Assembly (NCBI RefSeq): GCF_009914755.1
Contig: NC_060933.1
From: the human T2T-CHM13v2.0 reference genome, Homo sapiens
Length of the DNA stretch: 64,000 bases
Reading direction: 5' to 3' (one strand)
Of this stretch, positions 44,305 to 53,526 are shown piece after piece. The notes below the pieces were generated by a model. It did no database searches. It was given only the letters and a program-made list of their open reading frames with translations, and was not told where the DNA came from. The translations under genes and the position numbers were made by a program. The first letter of the stretch is position 1. Each line of letters begins with the position of its first letter.

Positions 44305-45268
44305 CACTCCTTCTCTTCATCCTCCTCCAGCTCCTCCTCCACGTCTTCCTCCAGCTCCTGCTCCTCTTTCTTTTCCAGTACCTCCTCAGCCCGTTCTCCT
44401 CTGCCAGCCCCTCCTCCCACCTCCGCTCCCAGCCCCTCCTCCTTTCCCAGCCCCTCACCATCCAGCCCCTCCTCCTCCATCTCCTCCTCCTCTCTCAGCT
44501 CCTCCTCCTCCCCCAGCTCCTCCTCCTGCTCCTCCTTCTCCTCCACTCCTCCTTCTGCTCCTCCTTCTCGTTCAGCTCCTCCTCTCCCAGCCCCTCCTCC
44601 TCCTCCAGCCCCTCCTCCTCATCCAGCCCTTTCTCCTCTCCCAGCCCCTCCTCTCCCAGCTCCTCCTCCTCCTCCAGCCCCTCCTCCTCTCCCAGCCCCT
44701 CCTCCCCAGCTCCTCCTCCAACAGCCCCTCCTCCTCCTCGCGCAGACCCTCACCATCCAGCCCCTCCTCCTTCAGCCCCTCCTCCAGCCCTTCCTCCTTC
44801 AGCCCCTCCTCCAGCCCCTCCTCCTCCAGCCCCTCCTCCTCCTCCAGCCCCTCCTCCTCCAGCCCTTCCTCCTTCAGCCCCTCCTCCTCCAGCCCCTCCT
44901 CCTCCTCCAGCCCCTCCTCCTCATCCAGCCCCTCCTCCTCATCCAGCCCTTTCTCCTCTCCCAGCCCCTCCTCTCCCAGCTCCTCCTCCTCCTCCAGCCC
45001 CTCCTCCTCTCCCAGCCCCTCCTCCCCAGCTCCTCCTCCTCCAGCCCCTCCTCCTCCTCGCGCAGACCCTCACCATCCAGCCCCTCCTCCTTCAGCCCCT
45101 CCTCCAGCCCTTCCTCCTTCAGCCCCTCCTCCTCCTCCAGCCCCTCCTCCTCCAGCCCTTCCTCCTTCAGCCCTTCCTCCTTCAGCCCCTCCTCCTCCAG
45201 CCCCTCCTCCTCCTCCAGCCCCTCCTCCTCCAGCCCCTCCTCCTCCAGCCCCTCCTCCTCCTCTTCCA
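44305..45268. repeat. Pyrimidine-rich (CAGCCCCTCCTCCTC-like) tract with internal ~320-bp-spaced duplication
   Basis: Landmark CGCAGACCCTCACCATCCAG at 44741 and 45061. Confidence 0.95.
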
Positions 45269-45269
45269 G

Positions 45270-46450
45270 TTCCTATTCGGGGCGGGCCCAGCCCCTCCTC
45301 GCGGAGCGATCGATGGCTTGGGCTCGTCGCACACGCCTGCCCAGCCTCTGCGCTCGGCTCGCCAGGCCTGCGGCGCTGCCATGGAGACACGGCCCAGCGG
45401 CCGCCGGCCCCGCCCTGGGAGCCCCGCAGTGCGTCGCGCCGCTGCCCGCATCTCCGAGGCCCGCGACGAGCGGTGACTGGGGCGGGCGACGTGGGGGACC
45501 CGGGGATGCGGGCAGACGATAGGGGGCTGGAGGATGGGGCGACCCAGAGCGCGCGGGGTCTGGGGCGCGGGGATGGGGGCCGCGGGCCACGCGACGGGGA
45601 CCCCAGGGTGCGCGCAGGTGGCGGGGACGCGCGATGGGGGCCCGGGAAGCTGAGGCTGACCTAGCGCAGGCATCCCAGGAGGGGAGGTCCCTGACGCTGC
45701 GCAGCTGGGAAGGCGTTCGGGAGTGGGTTGCGATGCTTCCCTGTTTGTTTTCTCCTGACATCGTTTTTGTTTGGGTCCAGGGGCCTCACGGGAGCTGGAT
45801 GCTCGGAGCAGCAAGGCGGCCCTGGGGGCCCCTTCCGGTCCCGGGGCTGACGCCTGGCGGCGTCTCCGGGAACCCGCGCCCTTTCAAGCGCCGCTGGCTC
45901 CTGTTTCACAGATGGAGACCCTGAAGCCCCAACAAGCAGCCTCCCCAGCACCTCCCAGTGACTGAAAAAGCTGGCACTGGGCGCCCGTCTCACTCTCCAC
46001 CCAGCTCCCAGGCTGCCCCACGGGACGTAAGTAGCTCGATCTAGGCCGCTGACCCCCAGAGACTTGATGCTGCGCTGCAGACTGCCGCCGCTGCCGGGGC
46101 GCTTGACTTCCCCTCTCCTGACAGCACGTTCGTTCCTTTGCAGCAGCACCTTTGGGGAGAGACGAGACCTGAACAAACGCTGGGGCTGGATCCCCAGGGT
46201 GGGTCAGAACAGCCGTTGCCCTGAAAGCTGGCCCGGACAGATGCGTGCGGGGCGTGCCACCGGAGCTCCTTCCAGCTTGCGTCTGGGGCCACCATGTCCC
46301 TTCCTCAGGGCACTGGATCCATCTCTTCAAGCTCAGTGGTCCAGGCCATGGTGGCAGAATCACCCCCCAGGGTGTGACGCCTCGTCCCTGTCAATTCCAC
46401 ACAGCTGCACCCGGAAGAGCTGTGGCCGGGCGCCGCTCTGACCTGTGTGC
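45270..46450. promoter_or_regulatory. BRD3OS: CpG island / BRD3OS promoter and leader exons
   Basis: CpG-rich; GC box GGGGCGGG at ~45279; predicted exon-1 donor GCG|GTGACT at 45473. Confidence 0.8.
45912..46026 (+). other. BRD3OS: Predicted BRD3OS 5' UTR exon 2 (115 nt)
   Basis: Acceptor CTCCTGTTTCACAG| at 45911; donor GAC|GTAAGT at 46027. Confidence 0.65.
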
Positions 46451-46683
46451 GGTCCCCTGAATGGGTCTCAGGTGTCTTCAGAATGGTGAGGCCGCCTCAT
46501 TTCCTCACCACACAACCCTCCTGAGGACGTTGCCTGCAAATGGGCGGAATTCCTAATTTCTACCATTCAGTTAAACGAGGGATCCTTAAGCCCCAAAGCT
46601 GGGAAAGCTGTCCGTTAATTTAGTGCGCGTGGGCCGTCTCAGAACAGCAGGGTTCCCAGGAGTCCAGCGGGACGGGGGAGGGG

Positions 46684-46938
46684 ATGAGTGGCCGTGTCCC
46701 CCTGGCAGAGAAGGCCTTGTCTGAAGGCTACGCCCGCCTCCGGTACAGGGACACCTCCTTGCTCATCTGGCAGCAGCAACAGCAGAAGTTGGAGTCGGTG
46801 CCACCTGGGACGTACCTGAGCAGGAGCCGAAGCATGTGGTACTCACAGTATGGAAATGAGGCCATCTTGGTCCGAGACAAAAACAAGCTCGAGGTCTCTA
46901 GGGACACAGGGCAGTCCAAGTTTTGCACAATTATGTAA
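46684..46938 (+). CDS. BRD3OS: BRD3OS 84-aa microprotein (formerly LINC00094), in predicted terminal exon starting 46571
   Basis: ATG-initiated non-repetitive [47 protein letters not shown]; acceptor CTAATTTCTACCATTCAG| at 46570; lies opposite the BRD3 3' end. Confidence 0.9.
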
Positions 46939-47392
46939 TTCCGATGTGAGCACCTGAACCCAGGACCACACTTTGAGGAAAACAGACCTGAGTTTCATTC
47001 AGTTGTCTTGTTGATTTCCAATCCTTGCTGGAAGATTTTGAATAATGAACGTGAAGATCAAACTGTGGTGTAAGAACCCAAGAAGCGCAGAATTGGCCCC
47101 CGAACCCCTCAGCACAGCCGCGGTGTGACTGGTGCACAGGACACTTCCCCTCTAGAGTCCCCTCCGTGGTCAGCTGTTGTGACATTTGAATTCTCCAGGT
47201 GCTGCTAGGGACAGCATAGGCCCGGGCACTGCTAGATGCTTGGTTTAAACCAGGCCAAGAGTAACCCTCCCATCCCCATTACAAACCACCTTTTCAAGTT
47301 TTTTAGGTTTTAGTTTTTTGTTTTTAGCATAAATGGCGGAGTAGCAGCAGCATCTCACCAGGAGCTTTGTCGCATTACATTTTGTATTTTGC

Positions 47393-50032
<2,640 letters not shown>

Positions 50033-50265
50033 CTTTAAATGGTTTTTTGGGGCCCCTTTTGGATGCTCTGGGTGTTTTTGCCAAGAGTTACAGGATGTCA
50101 AGTGTGGGGAGCTCAGCACCCTTGCTGTGGACCAGTGAAGGCTGTTCCAGACCAGGTGCTTCCAGACATTTCCAGGCTCCAGGAGAGAGGCTGGGAGCCC
50201 CCACAGAAAGCACAGGAAAATGCAAAAAAAAAAAACAGTCTTTTTTTTTTTTTTTTTTTTTGCTT

Positions 50266-50271
50266 TTTATT
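50266..50271 (-). terminator. BRD3: BRD3 distal polyadenylation signal AATAAA
   Basis: TTTATT on plus strand; on minus it is followed by an A-run then GACTG-T12. Confidence 0.7.
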
Positions 50272-51501
50272 ATGAAAACAAAACAAATGCCCCAGGAGAA
50301 GGGTCCATGATTACCAGAAACATCAAAGAGTACTTTCTACCATTTTTATTCTGTTGTGTTGAGGCCAGCATTGCAATAAACAAGCTAAACTACTTACATT
50401 GGACTCATTTTCAGTAACTGACATTTACAGGAATATACTAGAAACGGCACTAAAAAGTTTAAGAAAAGTTACGGTAAACTTGCATGCACATCATACAGAA
50501 AAGTAACATTTTAAATATAAAAAAGAAAAACTTCCTGGAAGCATTATGCCAGTATTAAGGAACAGTGCTACTCTGGATGTGACAAATTCTGTATGTGGGT
50601 GTTACTCTTTCCCAAAAGACTGTCAGAGGCGTGAGTGCTGCAAAAGAACAACAACAAAAACAAACACACAAAAAAATGTGTCTTACAGTTTGTAAGCAAG
50701 ATGACACTGCCCAACACAAAGAGGGGTCTGGAGTTCAGTTCACGCCCGAAGCCTGCCCCCTCGGCCTCCAGGGGTCATTCAGAGTGTTCTCAAATCCAAT
50801 TCCGACACACGACTTGTCACTACTCCTCTCCCCTTGAAAAAAGCATGTTAGAAGCTGCCCTACAGGTCTCAGCAGTGGGACAATCTAATTGAATCACCGC
50901 AGCCTTCTAATACAGAAGAAACGGACGTGACTGTCACCCTCAGCCCGCCAGCAAGGGCGCTGAGGAAGTCATTAATCCTTCGAAACTCTGAAAAGAAACC
51001 AGTGTTGAAGTCTGGACAGAAAGCCTTAAAAAAGTGACAGCACCAATGCAGCTGCTCAGTGTACCCGCCGTGGGCTGTCAGGGTCAGTGGCTTCTTTCTA
51101 GATGAAAGGAGCAGAGGCGAGCCGACGCCACCGTCACAGAGAACCAGCCGAGAAGGAAAGGCCCCACGATGCTCCTGCTGCGCTGCCCCCACAGCCGGCC
51201 GCTCCCCCGACGGCTCACACAGGCAGCACCTCACTGCCCTGTGGCTGGAGGGGCATTGCAAGGAGCGCCCCCCAGCCCCAGGCACCCCCGGCTTAGGGTG
51301 TACGTATCACCCAGCCCTGTGCTGGCAGCACGTTACCAACCAGCCTGCGTGAAGACCTGTCAACTGTCGTGTGTGAATTCCTTAAATTCGGTTTAAATAG
51401 TCCATTAAAGATCTGTTTAGAAAATACCTTTGAAAACGAGGGTAACTTTAAAAAATGGAAACTTTCAAATCCATTTATATTTTTATTATAAACAAAACTT
51501 A

Positions 51502-51507
51502 ATTAAA
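51502..51507 (+). terminator. BRD3OS: Candidate BRD3OS polyadenylation signal ATTAAA
   Basis: ATTAAA in AT-rich context; alternatives are AATAAA 50375-50380 and ATTAAA ~51404. Confidence 0.45.
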
Positions 51508-53526
51508 AGTTTAACAAACTGGCTGAAAACTCACCAAGTGTCAGACTCACCAGCAATTTAAAAAATGATAATTTACCAGCATCTCCTCATCAGAGTTCCC
51601 TCTCCAGTAAGGGTATACCTACATCTGTAAGGGTCAGTGGACTCTGAATCAATTTTATGGTTGTTTTAAAATCACCGTGTATTAGGATACTAATGATAGT
51701 CCCTATATCCATCCAGAAATGCTGGCAGAAAGCACTGGCCACCATACAGGACAGACCACACCACAGCTCCATACCCAGCGTCTGCCTGGAGGCTCCCCCA
51801 CGCTGAGGTCCGGGAGAATGCCTGGTTTCAGTCATTTCCGGACTAACTGTGACAACGCGTGAGCAGGGAGCACCGTGCGAGTCTCCGGGAGGGAATCCTC
51901 CTGGGGCCCAGAGACTCCTCCACCCCTGGGGAGGGCAGACAGGCTCGGGAGGGCCTGGCCAGGCCACTGGAGGCTGGCAGGGAGCAGGCATGTCCACCCG
52001 CAAGCCTGGGAGGCTAACTCTGGCATTCCTGGCCGGAGCCGCCATGCTCATTGGTGGGCCAGTTTGGGACATCCCCGTACTCAAAGACCATATGGCAGCC
52101 TCTGGGAAAACAAAACCAAAACATCACCTTCTATTAAACTCTGTATATTATTATTTTTTACAATAGAAAGTTAAAAATCAAGACTTAGATTTACTATACA
52201 TTTTTTCTCTCAGATTACAAAGTTTATATTATATAACTGGGGTTCCCTAAATTGATTTCTTTTAAAACAGTCTTAAAGAGACCAGAAGTGAATACAAAAG
52301 AACTAAACAAAATAAAAAATTAGAATGTGCTGTAGCTGAAAGCTGTCTATACCTGTAAGCCTCCAAGTTTCATACAAAAAAAAAAAAAAAAAAAAAACCA
52401 CAAAGAAAAAAACCAAAAAACCCAACAAACCCAGGGGCGAGCGCGCGAACAGACGTGGGTGAGCACCGCGCGGTGGCAGGAGTTAGCACCTGGAGACGAC
52501 AGGCCGCCGCCAGACAGGACCCGCGCCCGGCACACCACTGGCAAGGCCTGCATCTCTGCGACTGTGTGAATGCATTTCTTCTGCGGTTTTTTCTTATTTT
52601 CTTTTTTTTAAAAATGACCAATGATGTTAATAAATAACTATTTATATACACATAAGCTCGGGAAGTGGTTCCCAAGGGTGGCGCGGCAGCAGCAGCAGGG
52701 GCAGCGCTAGCCAGGCGGGGACTCACAGCGGGCTGGACTTCCGTAGAAAATTGCCGAACCTTACAAAAAAAGTCTCCTTTTTTTTTTTTTTTAAATCTTT
52801 TCTTCTTTTTTTTTTTTTAAAGTTGAGGTAAAAGCTTCAGTGTATGGAAACCTGCAGGCTGCATACACAGCCGCTCTGTTCCCTCCGAGGAGCTCCTGAC
52901 ATCACCACGAGCGGAGAACGCACATCCCACCCGACCACCCCCCAAGGGCTCCACGCTCCGGGCTGGGGCTGCGATGACCCTTCGCTTAGGCCCAGCCTGG
53001 TCTCCACAAGCAGGCACATCTGTCCTCAGCCCCTCCAGAAAGAGGTGGCCGCGTCAGACACGAGGGTCAGAGCTCGGGGCCCAAATGACAAGGACAATGC
53101 GTGTTGACAAAGCTAACAGCTTTCAAATACAGTACCCATATCCGAGACATTTCCTTGGAAAAAATTCTTTCTCGAGCTATCGACCAGGTTGGGCCTAAGC
53201 AAAGGGATTCCACAAGGTTCTTCGGTACGAATCTCACACGGTTTTCTGGGGTCATCGGGTTAGCATTTGAAGTTGTCATCTCCAAGTGACTGAATTCAGT
53301 GATGAAGAAGAGACTTTCTGCAGAGTTCACACCTTCTCATCAAGTCTAACGCACACACAAGATAGATCTCTGACCTATGAAAGCAAAAACTGGAAGATAT
53401 CATAACACTGAATTAAGAAGCAGACCTGCACACCATGGAACAGAAGTAGTAATATGAACCACAGAGGGGTACGGCAGAGTCTCGGCGTGTGCGACATCCA
53501 TCTGTCCTGTTCTGTCCGAAGCCAGT

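What the first reader, a model, noticed from the sequence alone, without database searches (positions are those of the whole stretch)
46684..46938. BRD3OS microprotein ends in a classical CaaX box (CTIM): predicted farnesylated membrane-associated microprotein from a former lncRNA
Seen: the ORF ends TGC ACA ATT ATG TAA (46924-46938), i.e. C-T-I-M-stop, and this is the only cysteine in the 84 aa. Known: Cys-a-Ile-Met termini are farnesyltransferase substrates (KRAS4B CVIM, prelamin A CSIM, lamin B1 CAIM), followed by RCE1 cleavage and ICMT methylation. There is no upstream palmitoylatable Cys or polybasic patch, which usually means ER/Golgi endomembrane residence or prenyl-chaperone (PDE6D) binding. 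Inference: phenotypes attributed to LINC00094 RNA could be due to a lipid-anchored, FTI-sensitive adaptor peptide with aromatic motifs ([20 protein letters not shown]). I do not know of this being described but cannot check.
Basis: partly seen in the sequence, partly recalled or inferred. Interest (0 to 1): 0.82.

Follow-up and report, generated by a model that had tools for sequence, protein, structure and literature searches.

The report
BRD3OS microprotein has conserved CaaX box
A tiny, uncharacterised human protein long treated as a non-coding RNA ends in a lipid-attachment signal that has stayed intact from sharks to humans, so it is very probably a lipid-anchored protein, which nobody seems to have tested.

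Summary
The 84-codon BRD3OS ORF (window 46684-46938, +) ends TGC ACA ATT ATG TAA, which reads C-T-I-M-stop, and C81 is its only cysteine.

It is not chance. Of 138 named vertebrate homologues, from shark to mammals, 133 end in C-x-[V/I/L]-X, and X is Met in 132. The 5 exceptions are aberrant gene models.

In a 107-sequence tree, the Cys never changed and the final Met changed once. Position a1 changed at least 28 times. Position a2 changed at least 24 times, but only among V, I and L. That is the substitution pattern the CaaX rule predicts.

Upstream lies a variable, indel-rich, low-confidence linker. There is no second cysteine and no polybasic patch.

Best reading: a genuine CaaX prenylation substrate. 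It is farnesylated first, and probably partly rescued by GGTase-I when FTase is blocked. It would then act as a single-signal, endomembrane or chaperone-bound adaptor.

No homology or fold match gives its partner. No searchable paper links BRD3OS with prenylation.

Caveats: there is no biochemical proof, the 842-nt leader carries 8 upstream AUGs, and CDS knockout did not kill endothelial cells.

It is a new member of a known kind.

The parts
46684..46938 (+). BRD3OS coding sequence: 84 codons plus the TAA stop
   Evidence: RefSeq CDS of NM_001355256.2. 114 named homologues at E 8e-45 to 4e-9.
46924..46935 (+). CaaX box C81-T82-I83-M84. The predicted prenyl acceptor is C81 (46924-46926).
   Evidence: C81 invariant in 107/107, M84 in 106/107, position 83 only V61/I29/L17, position 82 free at 2.3 bits. 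Parsimony changes are 0, 28, 24 and 1.
46936..46938 (+). TAA stop, exactly three codons after the Cys
   Evidence: 133 of 138 homologues stop three residues after the Cys.
46915..46923 (+). Conserved pre-CaaX triplet S78-K79-F80, consensus S-[KR]-[IFV]
   Evidence: S78 in 105/107, K or R at 79 in 103/107, I/F/V at 80 in 106/107. The hydrophobic -1 residue is atypical for the PrePS linker.
46882..46914 (+). Variable linker, residues 67-77
   Evidence: Column entropies of 0.8-3.0 bits (nine of the eleven columns at 1.6 or more; G76 is 0.77), with gaps in up to 26 of 107 sequences. Mean of 23.0 parsimony changes per site against 7.6 in the core. pLDDT is below 50 for residues 68-84.
46699..46881 (+). 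Conserved core, residues 6-66. Predicted helices at 7-12 and 17-38, and a beta-hairpin at 48-53/59-64.
   Evidence: Invariant L7, L26, W29, L45, Y53, G57 and N58, plus 31 columns at 90% or more. AF2 secondary structure at modest confidence: mean pLDDT of 68-70 for residues 21-40.
46816..46833 (+). L45-S-R47-S48-R-S50, a conserved L-x-R-S-x-S motif. It resembles a basophilic-kinase site; that consensus is recalled, not tested.
   Evidence: L45 in 107/107, R47 in 105/107, S48 in 106/107, S50 in 103/107.
45417..45472 (+). BRD3OS exon 1 (5' leader)
   Evidence: RefSeq exons.
45781..46026 (+). BRD3OS exon 2 (5' leader, holds 2 upstream ATGs)
46144..46683 (+). 5' leader part of exon 3. It holds 6 upstream ATGs. 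The nearest in-frame upstream stop is at 46621.
   Evidence: spliced leader of 842 nt with 8 upstream ATGs in all. The context of the CDS ATG is GAGGGGATGA.

Best explanation
BRD3OS encodes an ancient 84-aa cytosolic microprotein, at least as old as jawed vertebrates. Its C-terminus is a functional CaaX box. After translation, protein farnesyltransferase attaches a C15 farnesyl to Cys81. Met at X and Ile at a2 are the FTase-type determinants. The -TIM tripeptide is then probably removed and the prenyl-Cys carboxymethylated. The protein has three parts: a conserved 60-residue core that probably folds only on a partner, a free-evolving flexible linker, and the lipidated tail. It has no second membrane signal, that is, no palmitoylatable Cys, no polybasic patch, no amphipathic or transmembrane helix. 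The lipid should therefore give weak, reversible binding to ER/Golgi endomembranes, or insertion into a prenyl-binding pocket of a partner or chaperone. The protein would then work as a small lipid-anchored adaptor or regulator. Shown here: the motif, its position, its selective constraint, the domain layout and the absence of second signals. Inferred: the modification itself, the choice of lipid, the processing steps, the localisation and the adaptor role.
For: (1) Motif and position. (2) Conservation: 112 of 114 first-search homologues and 133 of 138 after the profile search end C-x-[VIL]-X, with 132 ending in Met. The taxa run from Rhincodon and Heterodontus sharks through coelacanth, lungfish, sturgeon, bichir, teleosts, amphibians, reptiles and birds to mammals. 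All 5 exceptions are long 'hypothetical protein' models. Four keep the Cys and read on past the stop position, and one loses frame. In two of those species (Arapaima, Eleginops) a second entry held here ends in CSLM. (3) Substitution pattern on a FastTree topology of 107 sequences: C81 0 changes, M84 1, a1 28 (S, T, A, L, V, I, R), a2 24 (V, I, L only), and a mean of 23.0 in the linker. This matches enzyme rules seen in paper passages. a1 is solvent-exposed with low selectivity, while a2 is highly selective (PMC3017772). (4) 38 of the 133 orthologue tails carry tetrapeptides that a humanized-yeast study reports as modified by human FTase: CSIM 11, CAIM 9, CLIM 13, CIIM 1, CVVM 4 (counts; passages of PMC11152559). 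The human tetrapeptide CTIM is the natural tail of yeast Rho4. In a yeast GGTase-I screen it behaved like the canonical, fully processed sequences (passages of PMC11304957). (5) Linker: the PrePS paper defines the motif as CaaX plus about 11 flexible hydrophilic residues (passages of PMC1175975). BRD3OS residues 70-79 are polar. Residues 67-77 are variable (except G76) with indels, and residues 68-84 are modelled at pLDDT below 50. (6) FTase has access: there is no hydrophobic N-terminus or transmembrane segment, since the highest 18-residue mean hydrophobicity is 0.03. (7) It is a real coding gene. RefSeq lists it as protein_coding with an NM 'select' transcript, and the ORF was flagged as a conserved ORF with high coding potential in 2016 (passage of PMC4739325).
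Against: There is no direct biochemical evidence, and no searchable paper links BRD3OS to prenylation. The -1 residue is hydrophobic (F, I or V in 106/107), whereas PrePS reports a preference for small or flexible hydrophilic residues from -1. a1 in human is Thr, which is not aliphatic, although a1 is reported as tolerant. The human mRNA has an 842-nt leader with 8 upstream AUGs, so the main ORF may be poorly translated. An endothelial study reports a translated BRD3OS uORF whose targeting killed cells, whereas targeting the parent CDS did not (PMC13307568 passages). The structure model is of low confidence (mean pLDDT 53.8, pTM 0.27), and no partner or fold is known. I could not run PrePS or GPS-Lipid, and I could not compute dN/dS because no vertebrate DNA other than human was available.
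Confidence: 0.75

Rival explanations
1. The tail is a CaaX box, but the lipid that matters is geranylgeranyl (GGTase-I) or a mixture of lipids. In that case farnesyltransferase inhibitors alone would not delocalise the protein.
For: Passages of PMC11152559 support this. Met-ending sequences (CSIM, CAIM, CLIM, CIIM, CVIM) were partly modified without FTase. Human GGTase-I modified CSIM, CAIM and CLIM to about 50%, and CIIM and CVIM to about 100%. [quoted passage not shown] One orthologue ends CTLV.
Against: The same paper reports full modification of the Met-ending sequences when human FTase is present. X is Met in 132 of 133 tails and never Leu. The upstream lysine enrichment that PrePS reports for GGTase-I substrates is absent: the net charge of the 10 residues before the Cys averages +0.3.
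Confidence: 0.15
2. In human cells the 84-aa ORF is rarely or never translated into a stable protein. The locus would then act mainly through its RNA or its upstream ORFs, and the CaaX box would matter only in other tissues or species.
For: There are 8 upstream ATGs in an 842-nt leader. uORF-BRD3OS was detected, and targeting it was lethal in EA.hy926 cells while targeting the parent CDS was not. Many papers treat the transcript as a lncRNA with siRNA phenotypes.
Against: The human ORF is intact and 79-93% identical to the other mammalian entries in alignment A1. The core and the CaaX box are under clear constraint across about 138 vertebrate entries. The RNA signal is mainly cytoplasmic (PMC9406669 passage). 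A lack of effect on survival in one cell line says nothing about other functions.
Confidence: 0.15
3. The conserved C-terminus is a non-lipid peptide signal. In human and in 62 of 107 aligned sequences it reads [S/T]-x-hydrophobic-COOH, which resembles a class I PDZ ligand (that consensus is recalled). Alternatively the Cys could serve redox, metal-binding or palmitoylation roles.
For: a1 is Ser or Thr in 62 of 107 sequences and the last residue is hydrophobic.
Against: a1 is the least constrained of the four positions: it takes A, L, V, I and R too, with 28 changes. The invariant residues are the Cys at -4 and the Met at the end. That is the reverse of what a PDZ ligand would need. A palmitoyl or redox Cys does not need a fixed distance of three residues from the stop.
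Confidence: 0.04
4. Chance: a C-x-I-M end that means nothing.
For: A single tetrapeptide match is weak evidence on its own.
Against: 133 of 138 homologues keep it. The Cys shows 0 changes while the neighbouring sites changed 24-28 times.
Confidence: 0.01

Closest known systems
CaaX proteins ending in Met: K-Ras4B (CVIM), K-Ras4A (CIIM), N-Ras (CVVM), prelamin A (CSIM), lamin B (CAIM)
   Same: The terminal pattern C-x-[I/V]-M is the same. BRD3OS orthologues carry the identical tetrapeptides CSIM, CAIM, CIIM and CVVM, and these were reported as modified by human FTase (PMC11152559 passages). Both have a flexible linker before the box.
   Different: There is no GTPase or lamin domain (Pfam gave 0 families). 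There is no second signal, whether polybasic or palmitoyl Cys. The -1 residue is hydrophobic. From recall only, not from any call: Rheb ends CSVM and Rnd3 ends CTVM. Those are the two commonest BRD3OS orthologue tails (38 and 20 of 138).
G-protein gamma subunits (small prenylated adaptors that work only in a complex)
   Same: Both are very small, mostly helical or extended, and carry a CaaX lipid at the end of an extended linker. PrePS notes that the G-gamma linker wraps around G-beta. Both are expected to fold on a partner.
   Different: There is no sequence relation: Pfam gave 0 families at E up to 10, the best PDB profile hit had E 0.48 and was unrelated, and Foldseek gave 0 matches. G-gamma tails end mostly in Leu or Ser (recalled), whereas BRD3OS tails end in Met.
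Conserved microproteins hidden in 'lncRNAs': Apela, Tunar, LINC00116
   Same: The same 2016 screen named BC094334 (LINC00094) together with these as transcripts with conserved ORFs of high coding potential (PMC4739325 passage). All were first catalogued as non-coding.
   Different: From recall, those act as a secreted peptide or through a transmembrane helix. BRD3OS has neither a signal peptide nor a hydrophobic segment, and would reach membranes by a post-translational lipid. Searches for 'microprotein' + 'CaaX' (8 papers) and 'micropeptide' + 'farnesylat' (7 papers) showed, by title and abstract, no natural lncRNA-derived prenylated microprotein.

Membership tests
CaaX-type prenyltransferase (FTase) substrates | Cys exactly four residues from the C-terminus | tested here: met
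   133 of 138 homologues.
CaaX-type prenyltransferase (FTase) substrates | a2 hydrophobic and uncharged; no acidic residue at a1 or a2 | tested here: met
   I83 in human. V61/I29/L17 of 107, and a1 is never D or E. The a2 selectivity is described in PMC3017772 and the exclusion of negative charge in PMC1175975.
CaaX-type prenyltransferase (FTase) substrates | X residue of the FTase class (Met, Ser, Gln, Ala, Cys) | tested here: met
   M84 in 106 of 107. Met-ending boxes were fully modified by human FTase (PMC11152559).
CaaX-type prenyltransferase (FTase) substrates | Flexible, hydrophilic linker of about 11 residues before the Cys (PrePS) | tested here: inconclusive
   Residues 70-79 are polar. 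Residues 67-77 are variable (except G76) with indels, and residues 68-84 are modelled at pLDDT below 50. However, the -1 residue is F, I or V, and PrePS reports small or hydrophilic residues there. PrePS itself could not be run.
CaaX-type prenyltransferase (FTase) substrates | Motif conserved among orthologues | tested here: met
CaaX-type prenyltransferase (FTase) substrates | Protein made in the cytosol and accessible to FTase | tested here: inconclusive
   No signal peptide or transmembrane segment. Translation of the human ORF was not checked here. The leader has 8 upstream AUGs. Supplementary proteomic tables were closed.
CaaX-type prenyltransferase (FTase) substrates | Isoprenoid demonstrably attached to the Cys | not testable with these tools
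   This needs metabolic labelling, a gel shift or mass spectrometry. There are 0 papers with 'BRD3OS' and 'prenyl'.
Two-signal (Ras-type) plasma-membrane targeting | Second signal next to the CaaX box: a palmitoylatable Cys or a polybasic stretch | tested here: not met
   An extra Cys within 20 residues occurs in 2 of 134 sequences. Net charge of the 20 residues before the Cys averages +1.6 (human +2), and of the 10 residues before it +0.3.
G-protein gamma (GGL) family | Sequence or fold match to the G-gamma domain | tested here: not met
   Pfam: 0 families at E up to 10. No PDB relative. Foldseek: 0 matches, though the model was of low confidence.
Long non-coding RNA (LINC00094) | No ORF under protein-level constraint | tested here: not met
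   The 84-aa ORF is 59-93% identical across the 106 jawed-vertebrate sequences aligned with it (52-93% by BLASTP for the near-full-length hits), with 8 invariant and 31 nearly invariant columns. RefSeq type is protein_coding.

The most novel reading that the evidence does not exclude
BRD3OS is a previously unrecognised member of the human prenylome. It would be a farnesylated, carboxymethylated 9-10 kDa adaptor, conserved for the whole history of jawed vertebrates. Its core carries an invariant L-x-R-S-x-S phospho-acceptor-like motif and would dock on an unknown partner at endomembranes or in a prenyl-binding chaperone. At least some of the invasion, MMP and survival phenotypes published for the 'lncRNA LINC00094' would be protein effects that depend on Cys81 and respond to prenylation inhibitors.
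Probability: 0.2. Interest if true: 0.8.

Novelty: new member of a known kind. Interest (0 to 1): 0.62.

Why it matters
The set of human CaaX-prenylated proteins is small and pharmacologically important, because FTase inhibitors are clinical drugs and statins lower isoprenoid supply. An unstudied, deeply conserved substrate adds a candidate mediator of their effects.

The gene also appears in 28 searchable papers under the name BRD3OS, plus others under LINC00094 alone. By title and abstract it is treated there mostly as a lncRNA, ceRNA or biomarker. The two BRD3OS-focused papers I read in passages (PMC9406669, PMC13604529) treat it as a lncRNA, and the one with functional data used siRNA, which cannot separate RNA from protein.

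A single point mutant (C81S) and an ATG mutant would make that question directly testable.

A practical point, by inference from the sequence: trypsin would cut after K79. That leaves a five-residue, lipidated C-terminal peptide that ordinary shotgun proteomics would not report, so the modification could easily have been missed.

Tried and rejected
**Family and fold**
- Pfam at E up to 10 gave 0 families.
- The PDB profile search gave 4 hits with a best E of 0.48, all unrelated enzymes.
- AlphaFold2 with the 107-row alignment gave a low-confidence model, mean pLDDT 53.8.
- Foldseek against PDB with that model gave 0 matches. With such a model, this says little.
- The ESM Atlas returned only the protein's own chordate clusters and no named cluster.
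- Result: no partner or fold family could be named.

**Second membrane signals**
- I looked for an amphipathic helix. The 18-residue hydrophobic moment is at most 0.28, and no hydrophobic segment was found. Rejected.

**Paralogues**
- The human genome search found only the gene itself, one broken chr11 copy and three insignificant matches at E 0.7-7.8.

**Literature**
- One search was badly designed. With min_terms set to 3 of 6, the listing was filled with general prenylation papers and was uninformative about BRD3OS.
- Searches are the informative negatives.
- The review PMC13524398 did not contain CSVM or CTVM. The Rheb and Rnd3 tails therefore stay as recalled.
- The Brd3os mention in PMC9346484 is only a gene list.

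**Not done**
- The third homologue search, for example with a shark query to look for cyclostome or invertebrate relatives, and the second structure job. Neither would change the verdict.
- dN/dS, because no non-human vertebrate DNA is reachable.
- PrePS and GPS-Lipid, which are not available.
- Supplementary tables of prenylome or Ribo-seq papers. These are closed, and they could list BRD3OS.

**Limits of the homologue data**
- Only 120 of the 198 profile hits were listed, so the 78 weakest were not seen.
- 49 candidates and 7335 candidates known from samples alone were left out by the tool.

**Rows dropped before alignment A1**
- 8 of the 114 first-search proteins were dropped.
- P0002, P0005, P0013, P0014 and P0077 have long N-terminal extensions.
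- P0110 is partial.
- P0074 and P0114 are aberrant models.
- Six of these eight end in a CaaX box.
- P0115-P0138 were not in A1.
Full report
**1. The observation**

The window sequence at 46924-46938 reads TGC ACA ATT ATG TAA. Translating 46684-46938 on the + strand gives an 84-residue protein that ends ...GQSKFCTIM-stop. Cys81 is its only cysteine.

The ORF list gives the same ATG-started ORF. RefSeq annotates it as the CDS of NM_001355256.2, the 'select' transcript of the protein-coding gene BRD3OS.

**2. Is it more than chance?**

- A word-indexed HMMER search found 114 named homologues at E 8e-45 to 4e-9. All that carry a gene name are called BRD3OS; the rest are unnamed 'hypothetical' or 'unnamed' entries.
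- They come from two sharks, coelacanth, lungfish, sturgeon and paddlefish, bichir, many teleosts, frogs, salamander, caecilians, tuatara, lizards, snakes, birds and mammals.
- 49 candidates known from samples alone were withheld by the tool.
- 112 of the 114 end in C-x-x-X, and 111 of those end in Met.
- A profile search with the alignment found 198 hits, of which 120 were listed and 24 were new.
- Of the 138 proteins then held, 133 have Cys at -4. Their a2 is always V, I or L, and X is Met in 132. The one exception is armadillo, CTLV.

The five non-conforming entries are long 'hypothetical protein' models of 122-194 aa.

- Four keep the Cys and the next two or three residues and then read on, as if an intron had been predicted across the stop (P0074, P0116, P0117, P0125).
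- One loses the frame about two thirds of the way through (P0114).
- Arapaima and Eleginops each also have a second entry that ends CSLM.

**3. The substitution pattern**

I aligned the human protein with 106 homologues. Eight of the 114 were dropped first: five with long N-terminal extensions, one partial and two aberrant. Six of those eight end in a CaaX box.

- Invariant columns: L7, L26, W29, L45, Y53, G57, N58 and C81.
- M84 is present in 106 of 107.
- Position 83 is V61/I29/L17.
- Position 82 is free: S37, T25, A23, L13, V4, I3, at 2.3 bits.

On a FastTree topology, Fitch parsimony gives these minimum numbers of changes:

| Site or region | Changes |
|---|---|
| C81 | 0 |
| M84 | 1 |
| a1 (position 82) | 28 |
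| a2 (position 83) | 24 |
| K79 | 14 (almost all K/R: 103 of 107 sequences have K or R) |
| F80 | 12 (I/F/V) |
| S78 | 2 |
| Linker 67-77, mean per site | 23.0 |
| Core 6-66, mean per site | 7.6 |

The codons next to the Cys have therefore turned over dozens of times, but only within the residue classes the CaaX rule allows. This agrees with enzymology I read in passages. Both plant prenyltransferases, and mammalian ones as cited there, show low selectivity at the solvent-exposed a1 and high selectivity at a2 (PMC3017772).

**4. Anatomy**

- Residues 6-66 form a conserved core.
- AlphaFold2 with the 107-row alignment gives helices at 7-12 and 17-38 and a hairpin at 48-53/59-64. Confidence is low: mean pLDDT 53.8, pTM 0.27, and the best ten-residue blocks (21-30 and 31-40) average 68 and 70.
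- Residues 67-77 are variable (apart from G76), with gaps in up to 26 of 107 sequences. Residues 68-84 are modelled below pLDDT 50.
- The tail consensus is G-x-S-[KR]-[IFV]-C-x-[VIL]-M.

The PrePS paper defines the full prenylation motif as the CaaX box plus about 11 flexible, preferably hydrophilic residues (PMC1175975 passages). BRD3OS fits this, except that its -1 residue is hydrophobic.

There is no second membrane signal.

- An extra Cys within 20 residues of the CaaX Cys occurs in 2 of 134 sequences.
- The 20 residues before the Cys have a mean net charge of +1.6 (human +2). The last 10 average +0.3.
- No 18-residue window has a hydrophobic moment above 0.28 or a mean hydrophobicity above 0.03.

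**5. Which lipid, and what follows**

In a humanized-yeast study (PMC11152559, passages):

- GFP-Ras2-CVVM shifted only with FTase.
- Without FTase the Met-ending sequences were still partly modified.
- Human GGTase-I modified CSIM, CAIM and CLIM to about 50%, and CIIM and CVIM to about 100%.

Thirty-eight of the 133 BRD3OS tails are exactly CSIM, CAIM, CLIM, CIIM or CVVM.

The human tetrapeptide CTIM was not among those tested there. It is the natural tail of yeast Rho4. In a yeast GGTase-I screen it fell with the canonical sequences, which the authors interpret as prenylated and fully processed (PMC11304957 passages). A GFP-BD-CTIM construct was made in the Arabidopsis study, but I saw only the methods and the general statement on a1, not its individual value.

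My reading is farnesylation by default, with probable partial geranylgeranylation when FTase is inhibited. Cleavage by RCE1 (human Rce1 cleaved a-factor-CSIM, and both proteases acted on CAIM) and methylation are inferred for CTIM, not shown.

With farnesyl as the only signal, established work on Ras trafficking (recalled) predicts ER/Golgi endomembranes or a chaperone-bound cytosolic pool, not the plasma membrane.

**6. What the core does**

This is unknown. All of the following gave nothing:

- Pfam: 0 families.
- PDB profile search: best E 0.48, unrelated.
- Foldseek: 0 matches.
- Atlas: only the protein's own family.
- Human paralogue search: none.

The low model confidence, together with high sequence conservation, suggests a segment that folds on a partner. 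I therefore commit to a lipid-anchored adaptor or regulator, by analogy with G-gamma-like small prenylated subunits. There is no homology to them.

One lead is a conserved L45-x-R47-S48-x-S50 motif, present in 107, 105, 106 and 103 of 107 sequences respectively. It looks like a basophilic-kinase site. That consensus is recalled and untested.

**7. Evidence that cuts the other way**

- The spliced 5' leader is 842 nt long and holds 8 upstream ATGs before the CDS ATG, whose context is GAGGGGATGA.
- So the main ORF may be weakly translated in some cells, and it is not needed for survival of that line.
- The cSCC study used siRNAs. It notes that an 84-aa protein is predicted, and it leaves open whether RNA or protein acts (PMC9406669, abstract and passages).
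- A 2026 paper treats BRD3OS purely as a lncRNA (PMC13604529 passages).

**8. Known or new?**

The gene, the ORF and its coding potential are known.

- RefSeq lists the gene as protein-coding.
- The slncky paper named BC094334 (LINC00094) with Apela, Tunar and LINC00116 as carrying conserved ORFs (PMC4739325 passage).
- BC094334 occurs in no other searchable paper.

The lipidation signal seems undescribed.

| Search | Papers |
|---|---|
| 'BRD3OS' + 'prenyl' (anywhere) | 0 |
| 'LINC00094' + 'farnesyl' | 1, irrelevant by title and abstract |
| 'LINC00094' + 'microprotein' | 0 |
| 'LINC00094' + 'ORF' | 6, none on lipidation by title and abstract |
| 'microprotein' + 'CaaX' | 8, none on a natural prenylated lncRNA-derived microprotein by title and abstract |
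| 'micropeptide' + 'farnesylat' | 7, none on a natural prenylated lncRNA-derived microprotein by title and abstract |

Limits: only main texts of the held library were searched. Supplementary tables, for example prenylome proteomics or proteome-wide CaaX lists, were closed and may list the protein. I could not consult UniProt.

**9. Verdict**

- The central interpretation, a functional CaaX box and so a prenylated protein, is strongly supported in silico at about 0.75.
- Lipid choice, processing, localisation, FTI sensitivity and the link to lncRNA phenotypes remain inferences.
- It is a new, deeply conserved candidate member of a well-known kind.
- Interest: 0.62.

Noticed in passing
window 44320-45261: There is a C/T-rich minisatellite of about 940 bp, with 15-18-bp units in about 50-60 copies and a 320-bp higher-order period. 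GC skew reaches -0.80. It ends about 155 bp upstream of the BRD3OS transcription start at 45417. It produces the long Ser/Pro/Leu-rich mechanical ORFs seen. Such a polypyrimidine tract might form unusual DNA structures or vary in length. Neither was examined.
   Followed up: partly
L002 1447-1617 (G000 chr11:22134310-22134481): This is a broken copy of the BRD3OS coding region. It spans 182 bp at 76% identity, from about codon 25 to the stop, with three in-frame stops and a frameshift, and it still ends ...FCKIL-stop. It lies inside the span of lncRNA LOC102723370, and no pseudogene is listed there in genes.tsv. Similarity is confined to the CDS, which suggests an old copy.
   Followed up: partly
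window 45417-46683 (spliced leader): The 842-nt 5' leader holds 8 upstream ATGs, with uORFs of 9-66 codons. A published endothelial screen found a BRD3OS uORF whose targeting killed cells, while targeting the CDS did not. I could not tell which uORF that was, because supplements are closed.
   Followed up: partly
window 46816-46833: L45-S-R47-S48-R-S50 is almost invariant across vertebrates. It resembles an L-x-R-x-x-S basophilic-kinase or 14-3-3-like site (recalled consensus). It could be a phospho-switch next to the invariant W52-Y53.
   Followed up: no
window 46771-46785: There is a run of five glutamines, Q30-Q34, encoded CAG CAG CAA CAG CAG. Q30-Q33 are conserved in 99-106 of 107 sequences, so this is a constrained Q-run rather than a drifting repeat.
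   Followed up: no
window 46144-47198 and 48762-50396: The RefSeq 'non-coding' transcript NR_149319.2 contains the whole 84-codon ORF. It differs from the mRNA only by an extra intron downstream of the stop. That would make it a likely nonsense-mediated-decay target rather than a truly non-coding form (inference).
   Followed up: no
window 50241-51523: The BRD3OS 3' end and the BRD3 3' UTR overlap convergently over 1,283 bp on opposite strands (given annotation). There is potential for sense-antisense interplay between the two mRNAs. This was not examined.
   Followed up: no
proteins P0074, P0116, P0117, P0125, P0114: Five deposited gene models (Arapaima, Hirundo, Ovis, Smutsia, Eleginops) extend past or lose the conserved stop after the CaaX box. 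These look like annotation errors, and they would hide the motif in automated CaaX scans.
   Followed up: yes
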